Assembly (NCBI GenBank): GCA_018657845.1
Contig: JABHWJ010000020.1
Location: forward strand, 190 to 64,189
Reading direction: 5' to 3'
Length of the DNA: 64,000 nt
DNA from: Candidatus Woesearchaeota archaeon
GTDB taxonomy: Archaea; Nanobdellota; Nanobdellia; Woesearchaeales; GW2011-AR9
Shown: positions 2,823-46,510 of the stretch, piece after piece
Position numbering within the stretch: the first letter of the stretch is position 1
How the letters are laid out: every line of letters begins with the position of its first letter
The notes under the pieces: generated by a model
What the model saw: the letters and a program-made list of their open reading frames with translations, nothing else
Told to the model about the DNA's origin: nothing
The model's database searches: none
Translations under genes and position numbers: made by a program

Positions 2823-3698
2823 TTAGATCATTCCAATTAACCAAACAACTAATAATCCTAGAAAACATCCTGCACTGATAAAAGGCATTGCTGGATAAAA
2901 CTTTTCTTTGTCACCTTTCCAAAAGATAACCCACAAACCCGCAGCAGCAAACAAAGGAATCAAAAGAGCCTGCCACAAACCAATTTCCTTCAACACTATT
3001 CCTGCAAATATTAATGGAAACCCAATATCTCCTCCACCCAACATTGCGGTTCTAACTTTCTTCTTCACTGTCTTCTCACCTTTCTTAGGTTTCTTCAATT
3101 TCCCTAATTTATAAGGAATAAATAATCCTGCAAAAATCTTCGCTTTCATTTGTGACTTTGCTAACTTAATCATGTGCTTCGATTTCCAAACCGCATAAGC
3201 ATCATAAATAGAAATTAACACCAATAACACCACTCCTGCCCACAGACTAAATAAAGGAACAAAAATAGCCGCTAACCCCCCATAAATAAAAAGCTCAGTC
3301 CCATTCTGTATCCACACATTAGGTTTAAACACTTTCCACAACCCTAAACCTAACGCCAAAGCCAAAGCAAATCCTTCCCACATAAACGCATTAAAGGAAT
3401 AATCTAATGCTACCACTACTGCCAGTGTAAACCAAATCTTCCACACCAACATCAACTTATATTTCATCATCAAAAAAAGAAACATTGTCCCAATTAATAT
3501 CGCTCCCAAAACAATAAACGGAAAATAAGTTTGTTCTTTAACAGTTGGCTCTTTAACTAACCCTTCCTTAAACACAGTCTTCCCTTCCAGCATACTCTGT
3601 TCTGCATCAATGTAATTCCATAGAACTGCTAGTCCAATAAACTGAGCTAACAAAAATATAACTAACAACACCAAGGTGATCTTTAAAGAATGTTTCAT
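2823..3698 (-). CDS. Presenilin/signal-peptide-peptidase-like intramembrane aspartyl protease (A22 family, archaeal PSH-like)
   Basis: Polytopic membrane protein with a YD motif (ISIYDAYAVW), a GxGD motif (MLGGGDIGFPLIF) and a PAL-like motif (YPAMPF) in the canonical order. Confidence 0.7.
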   Translation of the reverse strand: MKHSLKITLVLLVIFLLAQFIGLAVLWNYIDAEQSMLEGKTVFKEGLVKEPTVKEQTYFPFIVLGAILIGTMFLFLMMKYKLMLVWKIWFTLAVVVALDYSFNAFMWEGFALALALGLGLWKVFKPNVWIQNGTELFIYGGLAAIFVPLFSLWAGVVLLVLISIYDAYAVWKSKHMIKLAKSQMKAKIFAGLFIPYKLGKLKKPKKGEKTVKKKVRTAMLGGGDIGFPLIFAGIVLKEIGLWQALLIPLFAAAGLWVIFWKGDKEKFYPAMPFISAGCFLGLLVVWLIGMI

Positions 3699-3730: not shown

Positions 3731-5293
3731 TTAACTCAATCCAACTCCAGAAAAACTCTGCTCCGCTTTCTCTCCAGTATTACTCAATTTAACAAACTCC
3801 TTAAACAAAGGAACTTTTATTGGAACTGCAAACTTAGTAAATGTAGAAGTAACTAAAGCTTCTCCCTTATCTAAAGAAGCGATATTCCTATTATCCTGCG
3901 AAAGATCTTGAGGTGCACTCTCAATAATCGCTTGTCTCTCAGAACCCATTTCTATTCCCAAAATAATTTTAGTATTCATATTAGCTAAAATATTCTTAGG
4001 GATCTCTGAAGGCAACTGCGTTATCGCAATCAGACCAATTTTAAACTTCCTACCTTCCCTAGCAATACTTTCAAATACATTTGACCCTTGTTCCAAAACC
4101 CTTTTCCCCAAAACCCTAGGAGCTTCTTCCAGAACAATAGAAACTACCGCCTTATCTTCTAAAACTCCTTGTTTCTTATAATATTTATATTTTTCAAAAA
4201 TCTCAGTAGTGATCAAACCACCCACTAAAATCTCAATCGCTCCAGAGAAAAAACTGGTATCAATAATCACAATTTTTCCTTCTTCTAACTCTCGACAAAT
4301 ATCTCCAACTGTATTCTCTCCAGCAAACTCATCGAAAATACCTTGACAACAAACTCTTCCATCTACTAATTCCAACCCTAATAAAGAAATTAATTTCCTT
4401 TTTACAACCGAGATAGTGTCCTCATGAAAATTCATCCCTTCTATCTTCCGTTCCTCAAGCAAACACTTAATCCACTCATCTTTAAATTTCTTAGAATAGG
4501 CATACAAACATTGCCTCTGAGGATCGGATAAATTAACTGCCCCTTGAAAATGTTCTGGCTTCAATCTCTTTAAATTAATCTTCAATGTCCGCGCACCAAC
4601 CGGAGCATTACTAGGGGTATAATAACTAACTCTGTCTTTCTGGGGATGATCCTTTAATCCCAAACCATTTCTTCCATAGTATTCATCATGAGGGTCTAAA
4701 ACCAACATTCCTGCATATCCCTGGCCTAAAACATCCCACAATATGCAACTCATCAAATTACTTTTACCTTTTCCAGTAGAAGCTGGAATCAAAACATGAT
4801 GACTTAAAACTTCTTTTCCTGGAAGAAAAATATCAAAATCCATTTCCTTACTTCCGCTTCTTAATTTTCCTAAGAAAAATGGACTTTCTGGTTTAGTAAT
4901 AAAAAACAAATCTTCTTTTCTAATCTCTCTTACCTTATTAAAAAAAGAAGGCAACATTTTACAACTCCGACTATTCTCGCCAACCGTCAGCATAGGTTTC
5001 AAAAACGCTAATTGATAATTCCTTAAATTACTGTCCATTATCTCAAATGTTCCAGTTTCGCTGGACTGAGAACCATTACTACCTGTATTACTTTCTTCTA
5101 AATTCATTCCCGAAACCAACTCTAGATTTTGCTGAGATAGTTGAGAACCATATTGTAAATCATAAACTTGTAAAATAAATCGCTCGCCAATGTCTTCAAT
5201 CACCATTAACTCCCCTAATTCTACCTGTTCTCCGGCTTTAATTCTAATTACAATCTTTCCAAAATCTCCAGAAATCACCTGCCCCTTTGTCAT
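3731..5293 (-). CDS. HerA-like (DUF87/FtsK-HerA superfamily) P-loop ATPase with N-terminal HAS-barrel-like domain
   Basis: Walker A is [10 protein letters not shown] and Walker B-like is VVSIVLEEA. The N-terminal beta-barrel-like segment ([23 protein letters not shown]) and C-terminal ITQLPSEI...NTKIILG are typical of HerA/DUF87 proteins. Confidence 0.72.
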
Positions 5294-5670: not shown

Positions 5671-6360
5671 TCAAACTTTTTTCAATTCATTTAATATTGG
5701 TAAAGATTGATTCTTAATTGCAGTTAATTGGGCTTTGATCCCATTTACCCGATTATTCCAATTCGCATCAGTTGTTCTTCTTGGTAATTTTCTAATCACT
5801 TCACTTTCTACTTTACTTCTCAGACTTTGTGCCGCAGAAGCATATCTATCAAAGAAACCTTGCCACTCTCCTTCATGTTCAGCACGAGCATGTTTAAGTT
5901 TTCTCCAAGTGTGATGAAATTCTTCTTTAAGATTATCCATCTTACGCTTAGCTTCTCTTCTATTCCCATCAGTTAATAAATTAGCTATCTCCTCTGTCAA
6001 ATTTAAAGCTTTAACTAAAGAATCAATTGGTACTAAAACTGCTTCTTTTCTTTTCCGTTTCTCTTCATCTTCTTTATTCTTCTTCTTCTGCTCTTCTCCA
6101 TGCTCTTTCTTTTCTTTCCTTTTCTTCTCTGCAACAGCCTTTCGATCTCCGATAAACTCTTTAAACTCTTTTCTACGCTTCTCTAGAGTATCATCTTTCT
6201 TTTTCTTTCCCTCAATTACCTTTCCACCACCAATTGATCCAATGAACACAAACTTCACTGCATACCACAGAATCATTGCTGAAACAACTATCAGGGCATA
6301 ATTGATAAAACCATTTATACTAGCTTCAACTGCATTAGAAAGTGTCATTCCAAGTGCCAT
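5671..6360 (-). CDS. Module 3, B-type: N-terminal TM anchor + K/E-rich linker + helical/coiled-coil domain (229 aa), unknown function
   Basis: TM helix is FINYALIVVSAMILWYAVKFVFIG, followed by KKKKDDTLEKRRKEFKEF...EKRKRKE and a helical C-terminus. The ATG shares 1 nt with the stop of the upstream A-type gene (TAATG at 6358-6362). Architecture matches 6989..7864 and 8446..9294. Confidence 0.7.
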   Translation of the reverse strand: MALGMTLSNAVEASINGFINYALIVVSAMILWYAVKFVFIGSIGGGKVIEGKKKKDDTLEKRRKEFKEFIGDRKAVAEKKRKEKKEHGEEQKKKNKEDEEKRKRKEAVLVPIDSLVKALNLTEEIANLLTDGNRREAKRKMDNLKEEFHHTWRKLKHARAEHEGEWQGFFDRYASAAQSLRSKVESEVIRKLPRRTTDANWNNRVNGIKAQLTAIKNQSLPILNELKKV

Positions 6361-6923
6361 TATAACAACTTACCTCCCAATATATTTACATGAGTTCTCA
6401 TTGCCGCTAAAATCCAAAATAAAAGTACACATAAGACTAATTTTAAAAATACATGAAACCTAGTTTCTTCTTCATCATTACCTGGAATTTTAAATAATAA
6501 AAAACCAATCCCTACTACTGGGCCTCCAATTAACAACAAAGCAACCATAGTTGCCCATCCAGTTCCAACACCTAATAATACACTAGGAGACAAAAAGATT
6601 GCTGTGATCGTAGCGAGAATTGCTGCTACTACTCCCCCTTGACCTCTATTCAAAAAACTTAATGCTCCTTTCTTGCCACCCATCATAGTAACTACAGCAA
6701 AAATGATCGTGAACACTAAAATCCAAACTAAAATTCTAGTAAAAGCAACTACTGAATTTCCTGAAGACATATTTAGAAAACCTAATTGTCCCATCCATAA
6801 GAATTTATTCCAGACTCCATTTAACATCCCAGTATTTCCAACTCCGGCAGCGCTAGTTCCACTACACCCCACAATAAATAAATTTAATAAAAACAATAAA
6901 CTATTCTTCACCAACCTTTTCAT
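6360..6923 (-). CDS. Module 3, A-type: lipobox signal peptide + four-TM membrane protein (187 aa), unknown function
   Basis: Signal peptide with lipobox LFIVGC/SG, then four G/A/I/L/V-rich hydrophobic helices. It is a divergent paralog of 7868..8410 and 9299..9883 (shared block VVAFTRILVWILVF vs LGFVRILIGILAF vs AVAFIRVILGVLIGF). Confidence 0.7.
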   Translation of the reverse strand: MKRLVKNSLLFLLNLFIVGCSGTSAAGVGNTGMLNGVWNKFLWMGQLGFLNMSSGNSVVAFTRILVWILVFTIIFAVVTMMGGKKGALSFLNRGQGGVVAAILATITAIFLSPSVLLGVGTGWATMVALLLIGGPVVGIGFLLFKIPGNDEEETRFHVFLKLVLCVLLFWILAAMRTHVNILGGKLL

Positions 6924-6988
6924 TCTCTTAAAGAATAATCTTAAACTTATAAACTTTTTGTTTGATTAGAATATATAAGAAAAATTAA

Positions 6989-7864
6989 CTAACCCATTAA
7001 CTCTCGAGTCTTAACCATAATTCCTTGTAAGTCTGTTACTGCTGCTTCTTGTTTATCTCTTGCTGACTTTAACTCTGCCCTCATAGAATTTCCAGTAGAG
7101 ATATTTAAATTATTCTTAATGGTAGTTAACCTTGACTGAAGGGTAGTTCCTCCCAAATTTCGAGTATAATTTACTGCAGAACCTCCAGTAAAATTAATCA
7201 ATTTAATGTGTCTCAAACTAGATTTAATAACTGTAGTATATTTTGATAAGACTTGATCCCTAAGCAAATCTTTAGTTTCTTTATGTTTCCTTAAAATATC
7301 TTTTTCCAAAGCCATTATTGGTTGTTTATCAACTTCATTATCATCTAAAACTCCCAATAGTCTCTCCATTTCAGTTTCTTGTCTAAAAGTATATCTTCTT
7401 ACTGCCCTAAAATGACTAATAGAATCTTTAATCTTCTGCTCTACAGCTTCAACTGCATTAACTAAAACGTCTCTCTGTCCAACATTGTTAAACTTGGTCC
7501 TTCCTAAAGCTGAATCTATAGCACCAACTGCTCGATCCATCTCAATTTCAATCGCATCAATTTTCTCTAACTCTTTTTCTTCTTCTATATGTTCTCTTAA
7601 AGTTCGAGTATGTGTTCTTCTTAATTTCTTTTTCCTAGACTTCTCTGCTTTATCAGAAGATTTCTTATAAGCATCTTTACCTTTATCCCACAGTTTCTTA
7701 CCGGTACCTTTTCCTAAGCCATACTCTTTACCACTCTTCTTTTCTCCCATAGGGTTAAAAGCAATCAAATATACAAAATAACCTGCACAACCTAATAGAA
7801 CTATCTGTACCCAATTCCCTAACAAGAGAATCCAAGTTACAAATCCATCTAAAGGTCCTGCCAT
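6989..7864 (-). CDS. Module 2, B-type: N-terminal TM anchor + K/E-rich linker + coiled-coil protein (291 aa), unknown function
   Basis: TM helix is WILLLGNWVQIVLLGCAGYFVYLIAF. Clear paralog of 8446..9294 (RRYTFRQETEMERLLGVLDD vs KKITWRQESKMEKLLRDYEE; ALEKDILRKHKET vs VLEKNILGLHEES). Starts 3 nt after the stop of the upstream A-type gene. Confidence 0.75.
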   Translation of the reverse strand: MAGPLDGFVTWILLLGNWVQIVLLGCAGYFVYLIAFNPMGEKKSGKEYGLGKGTGKKLWDKGKDAYKKSSDKAEKSRKKKLRRTHTRTLREHIEEEKELEKIDAIEIEMDRAVGAIDSALGRTKFNNVGQRDVLVNAVEAVEQKIKDSISHFRAVRRYTFRQETEMERLLGVLDDNEVDKQPIMALEKDILRKHKETKDLLRDQVLSKYTTVIKSSLRHIKLINFTGGSAVNYTRNLGGTTLQSRLTTIKNNLNISTGNSMRAELKSARDKQEAAVTDLQGIMVKTRELMG

Positions 7865-7867
7865 TTT

Positions 7868-8410
7868 CTAAACACTCACTCCGGTCACTAAATGAGCCCA
7901 GTGACCTATTTGTGATACTAACCACATTGCAAATAATACTCCCACCAATTTAATAACCGCAATACTTCGGTTAGGAGTTGGTGTACCCAAGATTAACCAC
8001 AAACCTGCGGCAATTGGTGTACCCATTATAATAAACGCAAACAGTACGGCATAAGTCGAAGCTATTGAAGTTAACACCGTTCCTGGTAAAAACACAGATA
8101 CCATCACTGCCAAAATTATTGCGATCCCAATTCCCATTGGCCTAGTTAATCCAGGGATTACTGAAACTCCAAGATAAAATAATATGAATGCTAAAATTCC
8201 AATTAAAATTCTTACAAAGCCCAAAACTTGATTATCTGCATTGGTACCTAAAAACTTTAATCTCCCAACATCTAAAACAGTATACCATGCATTTTTACCA
8301 GTTGTTCCTATATCCTCGAGAAAATTAGTTTGTGCAGAAACAAGAACTGAAGAACTAATTAATAAAATTAGAAACATCATCGATAAAAACATCAAGTTCC
8401 TCTTTTTCAT
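7868..8410 (-). CDS. Module 2, A-type: signal peptide (SPase I-type, VSA/Q) + four-TM membrane protein (180 aa), unknown function
   Basis: Begins MKKRNLMF like module 1 A-type. Shares LILGTPTPNRSIAVIKLVGVLFAMWLV with LILATPTHSRATAVVKIAAVLFMLWLV of 9299..9883. Confidence 0.75.
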   Translation of the reverse strand: MKKRNLMFLSMMFLILLISSSVLVSAQTNFLEDIGTTGKNAWYTVLDVGRLKFLGTNADNQVLGFVRILIGILAFILFYLGVSVIPGLTRPMGIGIAIILAVMVSVFLPGTVLTSIASTYAVLFAFIIMGTPIAAGLWLILGTPTPNRSIAVIKLVGVLFAMWLVSQIGHWAHLVTGVSV

Positions 8411-8445
8411 TTTTTTAATTATTCTCCTTAACTATTTAAAGTTTT

Positions 8446-9294
8446 CTAATGCCACGCTGGTTTAATCTTAGCAATTATTCCTCTCATGTTTTCCAGTGCC
8501 TTTTCTTGTTTATCTTCTGCCTCTTCTAGATTTTTCTTGACGTTTTCCATTTTACCAAACCACCCATCAAATGTTTTTTTAGTGGTGGCAGTAAAATTAA
8601 TCGGCCCACTAATCTTGGCCTTAGCACTTTTCTTTAAATTATTTGAGATTCCTTCTATTTCTTTTTCAGCTCCTTCTACAAATTTTGCGCTTTCTTCATG
8701 TAATCCTAAAATGTTCTTTTCTAAAACCTTGATGGGTCCTAGTTCTTTCTCATCAACCCCTGCTTCTTCATAATCTCTCAACAATTTTTCCATCTTACTT
8801 TCTTGTCTCCAAGTTATTTTTTTCAATTTTCTAAAATTTCTTTTTAAATCATTCAAACTTTCTTTTAAATTAGAAAACGTTTTTGCTAAAGTTTTTACTT
8901 CATCTATAGAATAAAACTTTCGCTTATTATAAATTCCTTCTAATTCTTCTTCAGCATCAGATAATTCTAAATCAACTAAACTTAATTTCTTTAGGTACTT
9001 CTCGTCCCCAACATACTCTCTTAATGCAGTAGTTTTTTCTTTCTTAGCATCTTTCTTGGATTGCTTTAATGCTTCATTCTTCTTTTCAGCATTTTTATCG
9101 GTACCTATCATCCATCCTGGGCCTTTCTTATGGGCTCCCTTCAACTTATCCAAAGACCACTTAGCTTCTTTATGTTCTCCTTCAGTTCCACCTTTAACAA
9201 AAAGGTAACCATAATAAATTAACATACCTACCAGTATTGCGTTCGCCCAACCTGTTAGGTTGGATACCCAGTCCATTAAACTTTCTAATACCAT
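8446..9294 (-). CDS. Module 1, B-type: N-terminal TM anchor + K/E-rich linker + coiled-coil protein (282 aa), unknown function
   Basis: TM helix is WANAILVGMLIYYGYLFV. Paralog of 6989..7864 (see there). Starts 4 nt after the stop of the A-type gene at 9299. Confidence 0.75.
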   Translation of the reverse strand: MVLESLMDWVSNLTGWANAILVGMLIYYGYLFVKGGTEGEHKEAKWSLDKLKGAHKKGPGWMIGTDKNAEKKNEALKQSKKDAKKEKTTALREYVGDEKYLKKLSLVDLELSDAEEELEGIYNKRKFYSIDEVKTLAKTFSNLKESLNDLKRNFRKLKKITWRQESKMEKLLRDYEEAGVDEKELGPIKVLEKNILGLHEESAKFVEGAEKEIEGISNNLKKSAKAKISGPINFTATTKKTFDGWFGKMENVKKNLEEAEDKQEKALENMRGIIAKIKPAWH

Positions 9295-9298
9295 CTTA

Positions 9299-9883
9299 TC
9301 ATAAACCCATTGATCTAAAAATTGTTGAAATAAAACCAGGAGTTGAAGACAATTTATAGGCCCAACTTCCTAATTCATTAACTAACCATAACATAAATAA
9401 CACTGCTGCAATCTTAACTACTGCTGTTGCTCTTGAATGAGTCGGAGTCGCCAATATCAAATACAGACCTATCGCTACTGGAGTAAACACTAATATAAAT
9501 GCAAACACTGCTGCCCAAGTTTCCCCAAACAACAAAATCAAAGAGGGTGGAAAAAATATAGTAACCACAATAGCTAACAATACTGAAATCCCTATTGCTG
9601 CACCATTAGGCAAACCAATTAAAGAGATTCCCAAATAAATTAAAAATCCGATCAACACTCCTAATATAACTCTAATAAATGCTACTGCCTTACTCTGACC
9701 GGTATTCAACCCAAGAGCCTCTAGACTCCCAATATCTACAACCAATTCAATTAATTGTGTCATTCCCAATCCATTAAATCCAGAATCTCCAGATTTTCCA
9801 GGAGAATCTTGAGTGGCACAACCAGAAAATAATAATAGAACTAACAATACAACTAAAAACATCATCAAATTCCTTTTTTTCAT
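9299..9883 (-). CDS. Module 1, A-type: lipobox signal peptide + four-TM membrane protein, unknown function
   Basis: The ORF track starts at 9892 (MELMKKRN). I prefer the ATG at 9883 (MKKRNLMMFLVV) because it matches the paralog start MKKRNLMF and lies about 29 nt from a TATA box at 9907-9919. Lipobox is LLFSGC/AT. Confidence 0.72.
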   Translation of the reverse strand: MKKRNLMMFLVVLLVLLLFSGCATQDSPGKSGDSGFNGLGMTQLIELVVDIGSLEALGLNTGQSKAVAFIRVILGVLIGFLIYLGISLIGLPNGAAIGISVLLAIVVTIFFPPSLILLFGETWAAVFAFILVFTPVAIGLYLILATPTHSRATAVVKIAAVLFMLWLVNELGSWAYKLSSTPGFISTIFRSMGL

Positions 9884-9906
9884 TAACTCCAAGTAAATTT
9901 CTAACC

Positions 9907-9919
9907 TATATAAAGTTTT
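9907..9919 (-). promoter_or_regulatory. Putative BRE/TATA promoter for the six-gene membrane-module cluster
   Basis: The minus strand reads aaaactttatata, resembling other TATA elements in the window (aaaactttataaa, aaacctttataaa). It lies about 29 nt upstream of the ATG at 9883, consistent with a leaderless transcript. Confidence 0.45.
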
Positions 9920-10027: not shown

Positions 10028-10046
10028 AATCACTTACCAAAGAAAA

Positions 10047-10056
10047 CTTTATAAAT
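10047..10056 (+). promoter_or_regulatory. Putative TATA box for the S19e-L39e-L31e-Cbf5 unit
   Basis: ctttataaat is preceded by purine-rich agaaaa (BRE-like). Its centre is about 28 nt upstream of the S19e ATG at 10080. Confidence 0.5.
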
Positions 10057-45004: not shown

Positions 45005-46426
45005 TCAAGATCCAACACATTTAAGATAGAAAACAATGATATCGGCAAACTTTGATAATGCTCTTCTTATAGGAATCGCGTGAATTCTGTCTAAAGGACT
45101 AGTTAGAACTTTTACTTTGTGTAAACCCACTTCTTCAACTCCTGCGGTTTGTTTGTTCAAAAACCAACTGGGATATCCTCCAGGCAATGATGTTAATTCT
45201 TTTAGAAAGTTTTCGGGACCAGTTCCACCCATACCCATTCTAGCATCGACAGAAAATGCTCCTGAATAGACAATCCCCTTTGGTCCAACTGCAGATTGTA
45301 ATGTCATCTGCCCCAGATGGAGGTTCATTCCAGTAGCAGAATATTCATCCAAGATCAAAACATTTTTCCCCAAGAGTTCCTTCTTTTGTCTTGGTGAATA
45401 AAACTCACCATGTTCTCTAATAAATTTTAACTTCACTCTTCTGCTTTTAGGGATCCGATTAATCACCCATGCCACCACTAACCCCAAGATTCTTGCACTT
45501 CTATCTAAAGCGTAAATAAAATCGATTTTTTTGTTGTTTACTACCCTAACTACTCGACTCGAAAAAATCACCAGTGCCCAAATTTCCATCAAAGTGATAT
45601 GGTTGTAAATCTTTGATTTTATTATCTTTTTAATAGTCTTACTGATAGTGTCCCAAGATGGGCTTACTTTTGGATGAGCATATAATTTTTGGAACAAAAG
45701 TAATATCTCTCGTACTTCTCTCATTCTCCCTCTGTCTATTTGGCCCAGAGAATGGCCACCCTTAATTAACTGGTAAGTCAAATCCACCAAATCTCCTATT
45801 TCCTGTCTAGCAATTAATAAAAACTTCTTTTCTCCTTCATCCCGAGAGTACTTTAATTTGGCAGATATTTCTTTTTCCAATGCTGTTTGAATTCCTTCTT
45901 TTAATCTTTTTTTTGTTCCAGAGTGTTTGAAAGTAAGTTTATCCAACAAAGATAATAATGCAAGAATATCTTCTTCAGCTTCTTTGGCTTCTTTATCCAG
46001 TTCATCCCAATTAATATCTTCTTCTTTTAATTCTTTTCCAAACGTTCCCGTCATTCGTGATAATTTTTTTGCCAACCTATTTCCATATAACTCTAAATGT
46101 TCTCGTAGTTTTTTCTTAGGAACATCACTAAATGCAATAACCAAATTATTCTCATAACCCATTTCTTCCAAGTTTTTTAATAATTCATGAAGAAGCTTGT
46201 CTTGGATTCGTTCTTCTACCCAGAGTCCCCTCCGACTAAATCCCCCTCTTAAAATGCTTTTGAGTTCAGCAACAGCAGCTTGGTTGATTGCCTCAACTTT
46301 TTTTGGATCTTTTTCTTTATCTGTATTTATTTTTCTTATTTTAAGAAGTTGTAAAACAATCTTTAGATCCTTGTGTTGTTTAAGCAAGTAATCCCTATCT
46401 TCCATAACTGGTAATATTTTCTCCAT
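45005..46426 (-). CDS. Two-domain protein: N-terminal ~270-aa charged helical domain + C-terminal type-I phosphoribosyltransferase-like domain
   Basis: GKNVLILDEYSATGMNL matches the PRPP-binding loop pattern (four hydrophobic residues, two acidic, then xxTG). IDFIYALDRSARILGLVVAWVI resembles the PRT core helix. The N-domain has no recognised motif. Confidence 0.5.
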   Translation of the reverse strand: MEKILPVMEDRDYLLKQHKDLKIVLQLLKIRKINTDKEKDPKKVEAINQAAVAELKSILRGGFSRRGLWVEERIQDKLLHELLKNLEEMGYENNLVIAFSDVPKKKLREHLELYGNRLAKKLSRMTGTFGKELKEEDINWDELDKEAKEAEEDILALLSLLDKLTFKHSGTKKRLKEGIQTALEKEISAKLKYSRDEGEKKFLLIARQEIGDLVDLTYQLIKGGHSLGQIDRGRMREVREILLLFQKLYAHPKVSPSWDTISKTIKKIIKSKIYNHITLMEIWALVIFSSRVVRVVNNKKIDFIYALDRSARILGLVVAWVINRIPKSRRVKLKFIREHGEFYSPRQKKELLGKNVLILDEYSATGMNLHLGQMTLQSAVGPKGIVYSGAFSVDARMGMGGTGPENFLKELTSLPGGYPSWFLNKQTAGVEEVGLHKVKVLTSPLDRIHAIPIRRALSKFADIIVFYLKCVGS

Positions 46427-46510
46427 TTGAAATAAAATAAAGTTAATCTATTTAAACTTTTTTCACAAGTAAAATAAATAAATTAAAAGAAGAAAAAATA
46501 AAAACAAGAA

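What the first reader, a model, noticed from the sequence alone, without database searches (positions are those of the whole stretch)
5671..9892. Triplicated, translationally coupled two-gene membrane module of unknown function (signal-peptide four-TM protein + N-anchored coiled-coil protein)
Six consecutive minus-strand genes form three A-B pairs. A-type proteins are 180-197 aa with a cleavable signal peptide, a short exposed segment and four G/A/I/L-rich TM helices. Two A-types carry lipoboxes (LLFSGC, FIVGC) and one has an SPase I-type site (VSA/Q). B-type proteins are 229-291 aa with one N-terminal TM helix, a K/E-rich linker and a long helical or coiled-coil region. Positive-inside charge suggests the B-type body is cytoplasmic. 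Paralogy is visible directly. Two A-types begin MKKRNLM and share LILATPTHSRATAVVKIAAVLFMLWLV / LILGTPTPNRSIAVIKLVGVLFAMWLV. Two B-types share ITWRQESKMEKLL / YTFRQETEMERLL and VLEKNILGLHEES / ALEKDILRKHKET. The third pair is more divergent but has the same architecture. Within each pair the genes are 3-4 nt apart or overlap by 1 nt (TAATG), while pairs are 35-65 nt apart, so the conserved unit is the A-B bicistron. I recognise no enzymatic motif and know of no described family with this paired architecture. It could be an envelope or cell-contact complex diversified by duplication, or a conduit-like assembly. The hydrophobic signal-peptide A proteins only superficially recall VirB2/VirB6-type components. 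A HerA-like ATPase lies ~380 nt further along the same strand, but an opposite-strand L35Ae gene separates them, so that link is speculative.
Basis: partly seen in the sequence, partly recalled or inferred. Interest (0 to 1): 0.8.

Follow-up and report, generated by a model that had tools for sequence, protein, structure and literature searches.

The report
Undescribed Woesearchaeota two-protein membrane module
Three back-to-back gene pairs encode a previously undescribed membrane complex, a four-helix membrane core plus a single-pass partner carrying a cytoplasmic four-helix bundle, that is conserved at one genomic spot in Woesearchaeota (tiny DPANN archaea) and has no assigned function.

Summary
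Six minus-strand genes (5671-9892) form three A-B pairs with the stated lengths, spacings and paralogy. Each pair has its own BRE/TATA-like promoter.

The A-B unit is real and conserved. In 43 non-redundant related loci, 50 of 60 stand-alone A genes are followed within 40 nt by a B-family gene. Another 17 genes are natural A-B fusions.

The "triplication" is better described as two old paralogous unit types. Type I is A1B1 and A2B2, and type II is A3B3. They sit side by side at the same place (S19e/L31e/Cbf5 | units | L35Ae/HerA-like/SPP) in all the Woesearchaeota/Nanoarchaeota-labelled MAGs found. The window carries one extra type I copy.

Charge counts and an AlphaFold2 model of a natural fusion give this layout:
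- a signal peptide;
- an outside amphipathic helix;
- four TM helices (A);
- a fifth TM helix (the B anchor);
- a charged cytoplasmic spacer;
- a confident four-helix bundle.

Pfam, NCBIfam, PDB (sequence and fold), PHROGs and PADLOC give no family. Long relatives carry papain-like protease or beta-sandwich domains in the spacer. The HerA neighbour reflects general synteny, not an operon.

Function is unknown. My best guess is a transmembrane adaptor or tether. This is a new lineage-specific family of moderate interest.

The parts
9299..9883 (-). A1: type I A subunit. It has a signal peptide with a lipobox (LLFSGC), an outside amphipathic helix (G-x-L-x-x-LG motif) and four TM helices.
   Evidence: ORF. 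The start is set to the ATG at 9883 from promoter spacing. AI HMM E = 3e-55. P0002 is identical and is from a Ca. Woesearchaeota MAG.
8446..9294 (-). B1: type I B subunit. It has an N-terminal TM anchor (N-out/C-in), a charged linker and a helical C-terminal domain.
   Evidence: ORF. BI HMM E = 6e-86 and BII HMM E = 1.4e-8. Its start lies 4 nt after the A1 stop.
7868..8410 (-). A2: second type I A subunit, with an SPase I-type site VSA/Q.
   Evidence: AI HMM E = 6e-65.
6989..7864 (-). B2: second type I B subunit.
   Evidence: BI HMM E = 4e-84. Its start lies 3 nt after the A2 stop, in the same frame.
6360..6923 (-). A3: type II A subunit, the best-conserved type (about 50-55% identity across MAGs). 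It has a lipobox FIVGC.
   Evidence: AlphaFold2 model (pLDDT 73.8; helices 33-45, 56-81, 93-110, 113-145, 155-186). AII HMM E = 2e-68.
5671..6360 (-). B3: type II B subunit. It has a TM anchor, a roughly 70-residue K/E-rich spacer and a C-terminal four-helix bundle inferred from the fused orthologue model.
   Evidence: It aligns over its full length to the B half of the natural fusions, whose model gives a four-helix bundle with pLDDT above 90. It overlaps A3 as TAATG.
9907..9918 (-). BRE/TATA-like promoter element (AAACTTTATATA), 24-35 nt upstream of the A1 ATG.
   Evidence: All 5 matches in the window lie 23-36 nt upstream of a start codon, against 2.0 matches expected by chance.
8433..8444 (-). 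BRE/TATA-like promoter element (AAACTTTAAATA) upstream of A2, directly after the B1 stop codon.
6946..6957 (-). BRE/TATA-like promoter element (AAAGTTTATAAG) upstream of A3.

Best explanation
**What it is (shown).** This is a lineage-specific two-subunit cytoplasmic-membrane complex, so far found only in MAGs labelled Woesearchaeota or Nanoarchaeota.

- **A subunit.** A is exported by a cleavable signal peptide, lipobox-type in a minority of members. It lays a conserved amphipathic helix on the outer face and crosses the membrane four times. It is the slowly evolving core, with G/P-rich conserved motifs in TM2-TM3.
- **B subunit.** B inserts N-out/C-in with one TM helix. In natural fusions this helix follows A directly as a fifth helix. 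B then projects a charged, slightly basic spacer and a compact four-helix bundle into the cytoplasm.
- **Two unit types.** Two old paralogous unit types (I and II) are always encoded side by side. Each is a separately promoted, tightly coupled bicistron. The window has an extra type I unit.

**How it most likely works (inferred).** The complex is a transmembrane adaptor or tether. The A/B five-helix membrane module is the anchor, and perhaps a sensor of the outer face. The spacer holds the four-helix bundle at a distance from the membrane, where it recruits a cytoplasmic partner. In long relatives the same spacer carries an enzyme or a rigid domain (papain-like protease, beta-sandwich repeats) to the membrane. 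Types I and II probably act together as a hetero-oligomer.

**Confidence.** The anatomy and evolution are well supported (about 0.85). The tether function is a guess (about 0.35-0.4).
For: **Gene structure and coupling**
- Each pair has its own BRE/TATA-like element.

**Conserved adjacency and type-specific pairing**
- 50 of 60 stand-alone A genes are followed by a B-family gene.

**Independent A-B fusions in both types**
- The fusions align end to end with A3 and B3.

**Whole-unit paralogy**
- hhalign A-I/A-II E = 5e-36 and B-I/B-II E = 1e-9.

**Topology from mean K+R per segment**

| Segment | Mean K+R |
|---|---|
| A N-region | 1.06 |
| A loop 1 | 2.75 |
| A loop 2 | 0.03 |
| A loop 3 | 2.11 |
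| A C-tail | 0.39 |
| B N-flank | 0.2-0.4 |
| B C-flank | 4-6 |

**Signal peptides**
- They are present family-wide: lipobox-like in 10 members and AxA-like in 64 of the 77 members scored.

**AlphaFold2 model of the natural type II fusion P0039**
- Mean pLDDT is 81.7.
- There are five TM helices and a 64-residue helix running from the membrane into a four-helix bundle with pLDDT above 90.

**Fold comparison**
- Foldseek matches the bundle only to generic adaptor or ligand-binding four-helix bundles: 4HB_MCP, FAT domains and designed bundles, with target-normalised TM-scores of 0.6-0.78.

**Spacer**
- The charged stretch has a median length of 37 residues in type II (range 22-72), is about 54% charged, and has a mean net charge of +3.9.
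- The spacer tolerates insertion of Peptidase_C1, CarboxypepD_reg repeats or (PTPPG)n, while the C-terminal helical domain is kept.

**Conserved position**
- The units sit at the same core-genome position in 41 species-level MAGs.
Against: - No partner of the four-helix bundle is known.
- No experiment or expression data exist.
- The membrane core (A) is far better conserved than the cytoplasmic domain. A-II members share about 50-55% identity, while B-II members share about 20-25%. This is the opposite of what a passive anchor with a functional head would show. It points to an activity within the membrane, such as a channel, translocase or lipid/carrier binding.
- I could not inspect PAE or inter-helix contacts, so the A:B interface rests on the fusions and on pLDDT only.
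- Beta-sandwich (CarboxypepD_reg/SdrD_B) and Pro-rich inserts are more typical of extracellular stalks. This keeps the opposite topology alive.
- A type I/type II hetero-complex is inferred only from co-occurrence.
Confidence: 0.4

Rival explanations
1. Channel, transporter or translocase. Oligomers of the conserved 4-TM A subunit (plus the B helix) form a pore or a lipid/carrier-binding site. The B cytoplasmic bundle is a regulatory or gating appendage. Such a conduit could serve nutrient or lipid uptake in a genome-reduced DPANN cell.
For: - A is the most conserved part. It has near-invariant Gly/Pro-rich intramembrane motifs: A-x-F-x-P...VLLA-x-G-x-GW, LIGGP, and an invariant R at the start of TM1, K in TM4 and W.
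- The monomer model has a low pTM (0.46), as expected if the helices need partners.
- In many relatives the units sit next to variable glycosyltransferase islands.
Against: - There is no sequence or fold similarity to any transporter or channel family. Pfam and NCBIfam give nothing at E <= 1. The PDB profile search gives 0 hits. The best Foldseek match has E = 0.41 and TM-score <= 0.25.
- There is no internal repeat or inverted-repeat symmetry.
- Nothing is known about oligomer state.
Confidence: 0.25
2. Cell-surface stalk. The B body is actually outside the cell. The charged, Pro-rich or beta-sandwich spacer is an extracellular stalk, and the four-helix bundle (or the protease) is a tip that contacts the host cell or the S-layer of this presumed episymbiont.
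For: - Long relatives carry CarboxypepD_reg/SdrD_B-like beta-sandwich repeats, (PTPPG)n linkers and papain-like proteases in the spacer. These are domain types common in surface proteins.
- B is fast-evolving and the units expand in tandem, up to five units in L050. This fits surface diversification.
- Glycosyltransferase islands lie adjacent.
Against: - B lacks a positively charged N-flank. The mean K+R is 0.2-0.4 in the N-flank and 4-6 just after the TM, so B does not look like a signal anchor.
- With a cleaved signal peptide and four TM helices in A, the fused fifth helix must run out-to-in.
- In the protease fusions the segment right after TM5 is strongly basic, for example CRKKSTSYEQLGEQRREGLRR.
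Confidence: 0.12
3. Membrane part of a HerA/FtsK-type ATPase-driven secretion or DNA-transfer machine, resembling Ced or a type IV secretion system. A would play a VirB2/VirB6-like role and the neighbouring HerA-like ATPase would act as the motor.
For: - A HerA-like ATPase (3731-5293) lies 378 nt beyond B3 on the same strand. It lies within 9 kb in 13 of 16 related loci that have enough flank.
- The ATPase is divergent. Its scores are far below the bona fide HerA cut-offs, and it has weak CedD and VirB4 similarity.
- No NurA is adjacent.
Against: - An opposite-strand L35Ae gene always intervenes, and often several kilobases of unrelated genes do too.
- The linkage is no stronger than that to S19e or L35Ae: 24 of 31 and 14 of 16 loci.
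- The divergent members L051, L048 and L021 have no HerA nearby.
- A and B give no TrbC/VirB2, TrbL/VirB6 or Ced hits.
- The locus is core and syntenic, not an island.
Confidence: 0.08

Closest known systems
Bitopic membrane tethers such as ZipA (and EzrA-like N-anchored helical proteins) of bacterial division
   Same: B has the same order of parts as ZipA as I recall it from the literature. That order is a short N-terminus outside, one TM helix, a charged flexible or helical spacer, and a compact C-terminal protein-binding domain in the cytoplasm.
   Different: - There is no sequence similarity. ZipA_C and other Pfam models are not hit at E <= 1.
- The C-terminal domain is an all-helical four-helix bundle.
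- B is obligatorily paired or fused with a 4-TM signal-peptide protein, which ZipA is not.
- No link to FtsZ has been shown.
MotA/MotB, ExbB/ExbD and TolQ/TolR: two-gene membrane modules made of a polytopic subunit and an N-anchored single-pass subunit
   Same: Adjacent, translationally coupled genes encode a multi-TM protein followed by a single-TM protein whose helix is expected to pack against the polytopic partner.
   Different: - There is no MotA_ExbB or ExbD Pfam hit.
- A has a cleaved signal peptide, an N-terminus outside and no large cytoplasmic loop.
- The B body is cytoplasmic and helical, not a periplasmic domain.
- The polar residue at the start of the B TM (FIDYA) is not invariant. 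It is N in the window's B3.
Ced / type IV secretion membrane components (VirB2/CedA1-like pilins, VirB6/CedA) with a VirB4/HerA-type ATPase
   Same: Small, very hydrophobic signal-peptide proteins are encoded near a HerA/FtsK-superfamily ATPase.
   Different: - No family model is hit.
- A has four TM helices and shows no detectable tandem-hairpin repeat.
- The ATPase is not in the same transcription unit, and its linkage matches the background synteny.
Four-helix-bundle adaptor or sensor domains (FAT domain of FAK/Pyk2, p130Cas C-terminal domain, 4HB_MCP)
   Same: The C-terminal domain of type II B is an up-down four-helix bundle of about 130 residues. It superposes on these with target-normalised TM-scores of 0.6-0.78.
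   Different: Foldseek E-values are only 0.015-0.3 and sequence identity is about 10-17%. This is a generic fold match, not evidence of homology or of a shared ligand.

Membership tests
Type IV secretion / Ced DNA-import system | VirB2/TrbC- or CedA1-type pilin subunit (a two-helix hairpin after a signal peptide), detectable with Pfam or NCBIfam models | tested here: not met
   There are no TrbC/VirB2 or Ced hits for A1-A3 or for 14 fusions at E <= 1 or 0.01. A has four TM helices and no internal hairpin repeat.
Type IV secretion / Ced DNA-import system | VirB4/CedB-type ATPase encoded in the same gene cluster or operon as the membrane components | tested here: not met
   The HerA-like ATPase is separated by the opposite-strand L35Ae gene and by variable inserts. 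It scores 67.7 bits against a 600-bit cut-off for CedD and 11.6 against 643 for VirB4. It is absent near L021, L048 and L051.
MotA/ExbB/TolQ - MotB/ExbD/TolR ion-driven motors | MotA_ExbB channel domain in the polytopic subunit, and an invariant acidic residue in the single TM of the partner | tested here: not met
   There is no Pfam hit. The acidic residue at the TM start of B-II (FIDYA) is replaced by N in the window's B3 and is absent in B-I.
ZipA-type FtsZ membrane tether | C-terminal ZipA_C FtsZ-binding domain | tested here: not met
   There is no ZipA_C hit. The modelled C-terminal domain is an all-helical four-helix bundle.
ZipA-type FtsZ membrane tether | Binding to FtsZ and localisation at midcell | not testable with these tools
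   This needs experiments or a multimer prediction with the organism's FtsZ.
HPF/RaiA ribosome-associated protein (the NCBI name given to one B-II homologue, P0185) | Ribosomal_S30AE domain above the Pfam gathering score | tested here: not met
   The score is 18.5 bits against a 23.7-bit cut-off, with E = 0.0035. The hit lies in the K/E-rich linker (residues 45-107) of one member only.
F/A-type ATP synthase peripheral stalk subunit b | ATP-synt_B domain above threshold, and location in an ATP synthase operon | tested here: not met
   There are only sub-threshold compositional hits: E = 0.0087 for P0190 and E = 0.61 for B1. No ATP synthase genes are nearby.
Anti-phage defence systems with HerA | A/B or their neighbours match PADLOC defence models, and the locus is a variable island | tested here: not met
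   A and B have no PADLOC hits. Only the HerA-like ATPase hits generic HerA models. The locus is core and syntenic across 41 MAGs.

The most novel reading that the evidence does not exclude
The A/B units are the membrane core of a so far unrecognised cell-envelope machine specific to Woesearchaeales. In this reading, a hetero-oligomer of type I and type II five-helix modules forms a conduit or contact device at the symbiont surface. Its cytoplasmic four-helix bundles dock motors or enzymes, such as the conserved neighbouring HerA-like ATPase or the tethered papain-like proteases. This would be a new kind of trans-envelope apparatus underlying DPANN host dependence.
Probability: 0.12. Interest if true: 0.85.

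Novelty: categorically new. Interest (0 to 1): 0.6.

Why it matters
Woesearchaeota are among the most abundant and least understood DPANN archaea. None of their lineage-specific core membrane proteins has a known role, and how these tiny cells build their envelope, divide or exchange material with hosts is an open question.

This family is:
- core: it sits at the same locus in every related MAG recovered;
- abundant: 403 clusters at 50% identity;
- always present as two paralogous units;
- clearly modular.

The modularity, together with the split or fused A-B unit, defines a concrete interacting pair. The confidently modelled cytoplasmic four-helix bundle can be used directly as bait for partner hunting.

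If the family proves to be a tether for division or cytoskeletal proteins, a conduit, or a membrane platform for proteases, it would add a new component to archaeal cell biology. If it is only a structural membrane protein, it remains a useful phylogenetic marker for the order.

Tried and rejected
1. **Family libraries.** Pfam, NCBIfam, PADLOC and PHROGs scans of all six proteins, of B-II homologues and of 14 + 6 fusions gave nothing above threshold.
2. **PDB sequence searches.** The A profile gave 0 hits. The B and fusion profiles gave only compositional helical hits such as apolipoproteins, haemagglutinin HA2 and ATP synthase b.
3. **Foldseek.** The A3 model against PDB gave nothing (best E = 0.41). 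The fusion model against PDB and BFVD gave only generic four-helix bundles.
4. **First B-family search.** The word-indexed search with the three window B proteins returned only self hits, probably because K/E-rich words swamped the candidates. A linker-trimmed 27-sequence profile returned 11 B-II proteins but no fusions.
5. **Genome scan.** It was repeated with type II only.
6. **Internal duplication in A.** Comparing TM1-2 with TM3-4, as a tandem VirB2-like hairpin would require, gave hhalign probability 1.7%. I rejected this idea.
7. **NurA partner of the HerA-like ATPase.** The neighbouring genes in relatives are APH kinase, Fic and others, not NurA.
8. **The 'HPF/RaiA' name** given by NCBI to one homologue is a sub-threshold hit in the linker. 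I rejected it.
9. **Literature.** Full-text searches for DPANN or Woesearchaeota with HerA, membrane or secretion found no description of this family. A 2026 preprint on haloarchaeal CdpC describes a different, zinc-finger FtsZ anchor.
10. **Cluster look-up** of divergent long members gave no taxonomy beyond one Woesearchaeota label.

Full report
**1. Observation**

The six minus-strand ORFs are present as described.

| Gene | Coordinates | Length |
|---|---|---|
| A1 | 9299-9892 | 197 aa from TTG |
| B1 | 8446-9294 | 282 aa |
| A2 | 7868-8410 | 180 aa |
| B2 | 6989-7864 | 291 aa |
| A3 | 6360-6923 | 187 aa |
| B3 | 5671-6360 | 229 aa |

For A1, the ATG at 9883 is the more likely start.

I read the junctions directly:
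- A1 stop, then 4 nt, then B1 ATG.
- A2 stop, then 3 nt, then B2 ATG.
- A3/B3 overlap as TAATG.
- The pairs are 35 and 65 nt apart.

Each A gene is preceded by the same BRE/TATA-like element, AAA[CG]TTTA[AT]A[AT][AG], 23-35 nt upstream of its ATG.
- The pattern occurs five times in the window, against 2.0 expected by chance.
- All five copies sit 23-36 nt upstream of a start codon. The other two are upstream of S19e and of the ORF at 45005-46426.
- So the three pairs are three separately promoted, tightly coupled bicistrons with short or no leaders.

Paralogy is statistically solid:
- A1 vs A3: BLASTP E = 2e-9.
- A1 vs A2: 39% identity. B1 vs B2: 30% identity.
- B1 vs B3 is not significant pairwise.
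- Family profiles connect them. hhalign gives B-I vs B-II probability 96.5%, E = 1e-9 over 157 columns, and A-I vs A-II probability 99.9%, E = 5e-36.
- The B-II HMM hits B1 at 1.4e-8.

There are no other copies in the window.

**2. Source organism and distribution**

A1, A2, A3, B1 and B3 are identical to proteins of a Candidatus Woesearchaeota MAG with locus tags HOC13_020xx.
- A word-indexed search with the A profile found 33 proteins of 168-187 aa, none with a Pfam domain.
- An exhaustive HMMER search of 1.84 billion cluster representatives found 403 clusters at E <= 1e-3 and 186 at E <= 1e-10.
- A scan of one genome per GTDB species found 41 loci. All are in MAGs titled Woesearchaeota, Nanoarchaeota or Nanoarchaeia, or in bulk-submitted bins titled 'uncultured Methanosarcinales' that share the same Woesearchaeota gene order and are probably mislabelled.

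**3. Conserved context and the real unit structure**

I called ORFs in 50 loci and labelled them with the window's proteins. The result is one canonical map:

S3Ae> Metallophos> ... Cbf5< L31e< S19e< | type I unit | type II unit | (variable insert) L35Ae< HerA-like> SPP>

- Type I corresponds to the window's A1B1 and A2B2. Type II corresponds to A3B3.
- Both types are present side by side in essentially every locus that is long enough.
- So the window's 'triplication' is an old two-type arrangement plus one additional type I copy. A second complete type I pair was not seen in my sample of relatives.
- Copy number varies from two units to five in a row, as in L050.

Adjacency among 60 stand-alone A genes in 43 non-redundant loci:
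- 50 are followed on the same strand within 40 nt by a B-family gene. The gap is mostly -1 to +4 nt.
- A-I is followed only by B-I, and A-II only by B-II.
- Most exceptions are contig ends, extra 'orphan' A-like genes with N-terminal extensions, or start-calling problems.

**4. Rosetta-stone fusions**

In many genomes the type I unit is a single 381-536 aa protein. In several, the type II unit is a single 371-454 aa protein.
- In all of them the order is signal peptide, four TM helices, short linker, fifth TM helix, charged spacer, helical domain.
- The fifth helix aligns with the N-terminal anchor of stand-alone B. The window's A3 and B3 align end to end with the type II fusions.
- Independent fusion in both types is strong genomic evidence that A and B act as one physical unit.
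- It also fixes their relative topology.

**5. Topology**

Mean K+R per segment across 36 type II A proteins:

| Segment | Mean K+R | Note |
|---|---|---|
| N-region after the signal peptide | 1.06 | D+E 2.4 |
| Loop 1 | 2.75 | |
| Loop 2 | 0.03 | |
| Loop 3 | 2.11 | |
| C-tail | 0.39 | |

For B, the N-flank has 0.2-0.4 K+R and about 2 acidic residues. The 25 residues after the TM have 4-6 K+R.

Every full-length family member has an N-terminal signal peptide. It is lipobox-like in 10 members and AxA-like in 64 of the 77 members scored. Lipobox proteins are predicted to be common in DPANN (PMC12462473).

By the positive-inside rule, this gives:
- A: N-terminus out, four TM helices, C-terminus out.
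- B: N-terminus out, C-terminus in, so the B body is cytoplasmic.

The caveat is that the TM2-turn-TM3 segment is one continuous hydrophobic stretch of about 50 residues. No dedicated topology predictor was available.

**6. Structure**

*A3 alone, with 32 sequences.*
- Mean pLDDT is 73.8 and pTM is 0.46.
- The helices are 2-21 (signal peptide), 33-45 (conserved amphipathic helix carrying the G-x-L-x-FLG motif), 56-81, 93-110, 113-145 and 155-186.

*Natural type II fusion P0039 (374 aa), with an alignment of fusions, A-II, B-II, A3 and B3.*
- Mean pLDDT is 81.7.
- The four A helices are 46-70, 82-99, 102-134 and 143-169.
- The fifth TM helix is 176-206, with pLDDT 83-90.
- A single 64-residue helix (210-273) runs through the charged spacer into a four-helix bundle (to residue 371) with pLDDT mostly above 90.
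- I could not access PAE or coordinates, so the packing of TM5 on A is not independently verified.

*Spacer composition.*
- The charged stretch has a median length of 37 residues in B-II (range 22-72) and 28 in B-I.
- It is about 50% charged, with a mean net charge of +2 to +4.

**7. Comparison with known families**

Nothing known matches.
- Pfam and NCBIfam at E <= 1 give only noise for all six proteins.
- The same holds for B-II homologues and for 6 type II and 14 type I fusions.
- PADLOC and PHROGs give nothing.
- The PDB sequence-profile search gives 0 hits for A. For B and the fusions it gives only compositional hits.
- Foldseek with the A model gives a best E of 0.41 and TM-score <= 0.25.
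- Foldseek with the fusion model gives only generic four-helix bundles against PDB and BFVD: 4HB_MCP ligand-binding domains at E = 0.015, FAT domains, talin VBS and designed bundles. None reaches E <= 1e-3.
- There is no internal repeat in A.
- One homologue carries the NCBI name 'HPF/RaiA family ribosome-associated protein'. This traces to a sub-threshold hit in the K/E linker and is spurious.

**8. Long relatives**

About a dozen of the 150 listed representatives are 560-913 aa long. They keep the N-terminal five-TM module and a C-terminal helical domain. They carry extra material in the spacer:
- A papain-family Peptidase_C1 domain behind a Pro-rich linker (P0044, P0069, P0076, P0115). One sits in the canonical locus as the fifth unit, at L050 5728-8442.
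- CarboxypepD_reg/SdrD_B-type beta-sandwich repeats (P0040, P0067).
- (PTPPG)n repeats (P0084).

So the spacer is a modular, insertion-tolerant connector. In some lineages the module tethers an enzyme. These insert types are more usual outside cells, which is the main argument for the opposite topology. However, the segment just after TM5 in the protease fusions is strongly basic, which fits a cytoplasmic location.

**9. The HerA neighbour**

The 520-aa protein at 3731-5293 is a HerA/FtsK-superfamily ATPase.
- It hits Pfam DUF87 at E = 9e-23.
- Its NCBIfam HerA scores are 80-84 bits against cut-offs of 800-970.

Linkage figures:

| Neighbour | Distance | Loci |
|---|---|---|
| HerA-like ATPase | within 9 kb downstream | 13 of 16 |
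| L35Ae | within 9 kb downstream | 14 of 16 |
| S19e | within 1.5 kb upstream | 24 of 31 |

- The opposite-strand L35Ae gene always intervenes, often with several kilobases of glycosyltransferase, kinase, HAD or phosphoesterase genes.
- HerA is missing near L021 and L048 and near the divergent member in L051.
- No NurA is adjacent.
- The link is therefore positional synteny. A functional connection is neither shown nor excluded.

**10. Interpretation**

*Shown.* This is a conserved, lineage-specific two-subunit (or fused) membrane protein unit with five TM helices. It has an outside amphipathic helix, a cytoplasmic charged spacer and a four-helix bundle. It exists as two old paralogous types that are always co-encoded.

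*Inferred, about 0.4.* It is a transmembrane adaptor or tether that holds a protein-binding bundle, or in long variants an enzyme, at the inner face of the membrane. Types I and II may form a hetero-oligomer.

*Main rival, about 0.25.* The strongly conserved Gly/Pro-rich membrane core is itself the active part (channel, translocase or carrier-binding site) and B is regulatory. The conservation asymmetry favours this. A-II members share about 50-55% identity, while B-II members share about 20-25%.

*Lesser rivals.*
- An extracellular stalk or host-contact device, if the topology is reversed (about 0.12).
- A HerA-driven secretion or DNA-transfer apparatus (about 0.08).

**11. Verdict**

The family appears undescribed. 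Its function remains unknown.

Interest is moderate to fairly high for archaeal and DPANN cell biology. The family is core, abundant and modular, and it offers clear experimental handles. However, no mechanism is yet established, and it is confined to one order-level lineage as far as these searches reach.

Noticed in passing
window 6946-6957 (-), 8433-8444 (-), 9907-9918 (-), 10044-10055 (+), 46449-46460 (-): The 12-mer AAASTTTAWAWR occurs five times, against 2.0 expected. Every copy lies 23-36 nt upstream of a start codon (A3, A2, A1, S19e and the ORF at 45005-46426). This looks like the organism's BRE+TATA promoter consensus with very short leaders.
   Followed up: partly
L003 9346-15161; L006 9248-12522; L025 5003-9636; L020 11159-13339; L021 11203-13324; L035 11203-15609: In many relatives a variable island sits on the opposite strand between the type II B gene and L35Ae. 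It holds GT2/GT4 glycosyltransferases, APH-type kinases, HAD hydrolases and 390-420 aa Metallophos proteins. The window has no such insert.
   Followed up: partly
L050 5728-8442; L013 12356-13360 (truncated); proteins P0044, P0069, P0076, P0115, P0040, P0067, P0084: Long family members carry a papain-like Peptidase_C1 domain, CarboxypepD_reg/SdrD_B beta-sandwich repeats or (PTPPG)n repeats. These sit between the fifth TM helix and the C-terminal helical domain. A Cys right after TM5 is conserved in these long forms.
   Followed up: partly
L006 1984-4452; L003 15682-16564 (and L004, L005, L011): Relatives carry inteins (Intein_splicing + LAGLIDADG) inside Cbf5/TruB (822 aa) and inside the HerA-like ATPase (1036 aa). 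The window's copies are intein-free.
   Followed up: no
protein P0185 (B-II homologue, L028 2301-2972): NCBI names it 'HPF/RaiA family ribosome-associated protein'. The only support is a sub-threshold Ribosomal_S30AE hit (18.5 bits against 23.7) in the K/E-rich linker, so this is probably a misannotation.
   Followed up: yes
L014, L015, L017-L019, L021, L026, L029, L035, L037, L044, L047-L049: Fourteen genome records titled 'uncultured Methanosarcinales archaeon' (TPA bins) carry this Woesearchaeota-type locus with the same synteny. The titles are probably wrong taxonomic labels.
   Followed up: no
protein P0036 (738-bp ENA contig): This 148-aa predicted protein is 100% identical to half of B3, yet it carries a precomputed GTP_EFTU Pfam hit. 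It is probably a chimeric contig or ORF.
   Followed up: no
C-termini of type II B proteins and fusions, e.g. L003 8564-9331, L006 8525-9241, L016 6262-7044, L025 4300-5070: Many end in a Pro/Gly-rich tail whose last residue is Pro (...GTP...GYP...GSP...IRP). This may be a short C-terminal docking motif. The window's B3 lacks it.
   Followed up: no
window 3731-5293 (-) and 2823-3698 (-): The HerA-like ATPase is consistently followed on the same strand by a presenilin-type signal peptide peptidase (SPP, PF06550) in relatives. It has no adjacent NurA. Its scores are far below the NCBIfam HerA cut-offs, so it is a divergent stand-alone HerA/FtsK-family ATPase of unclear role.
   Followed up: partly
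window, whole (2-kb bins): GC skew alternates between about -0.3 to -0.4 and about 0 in long blocks. The blocks follow the coding strand: minus-strand gene blocks at 1-10 kb, 16-24 kb, 40-48 kb and 56-64 kb. This indicates a strong purine bias of the coding strand.
   Followed up: no
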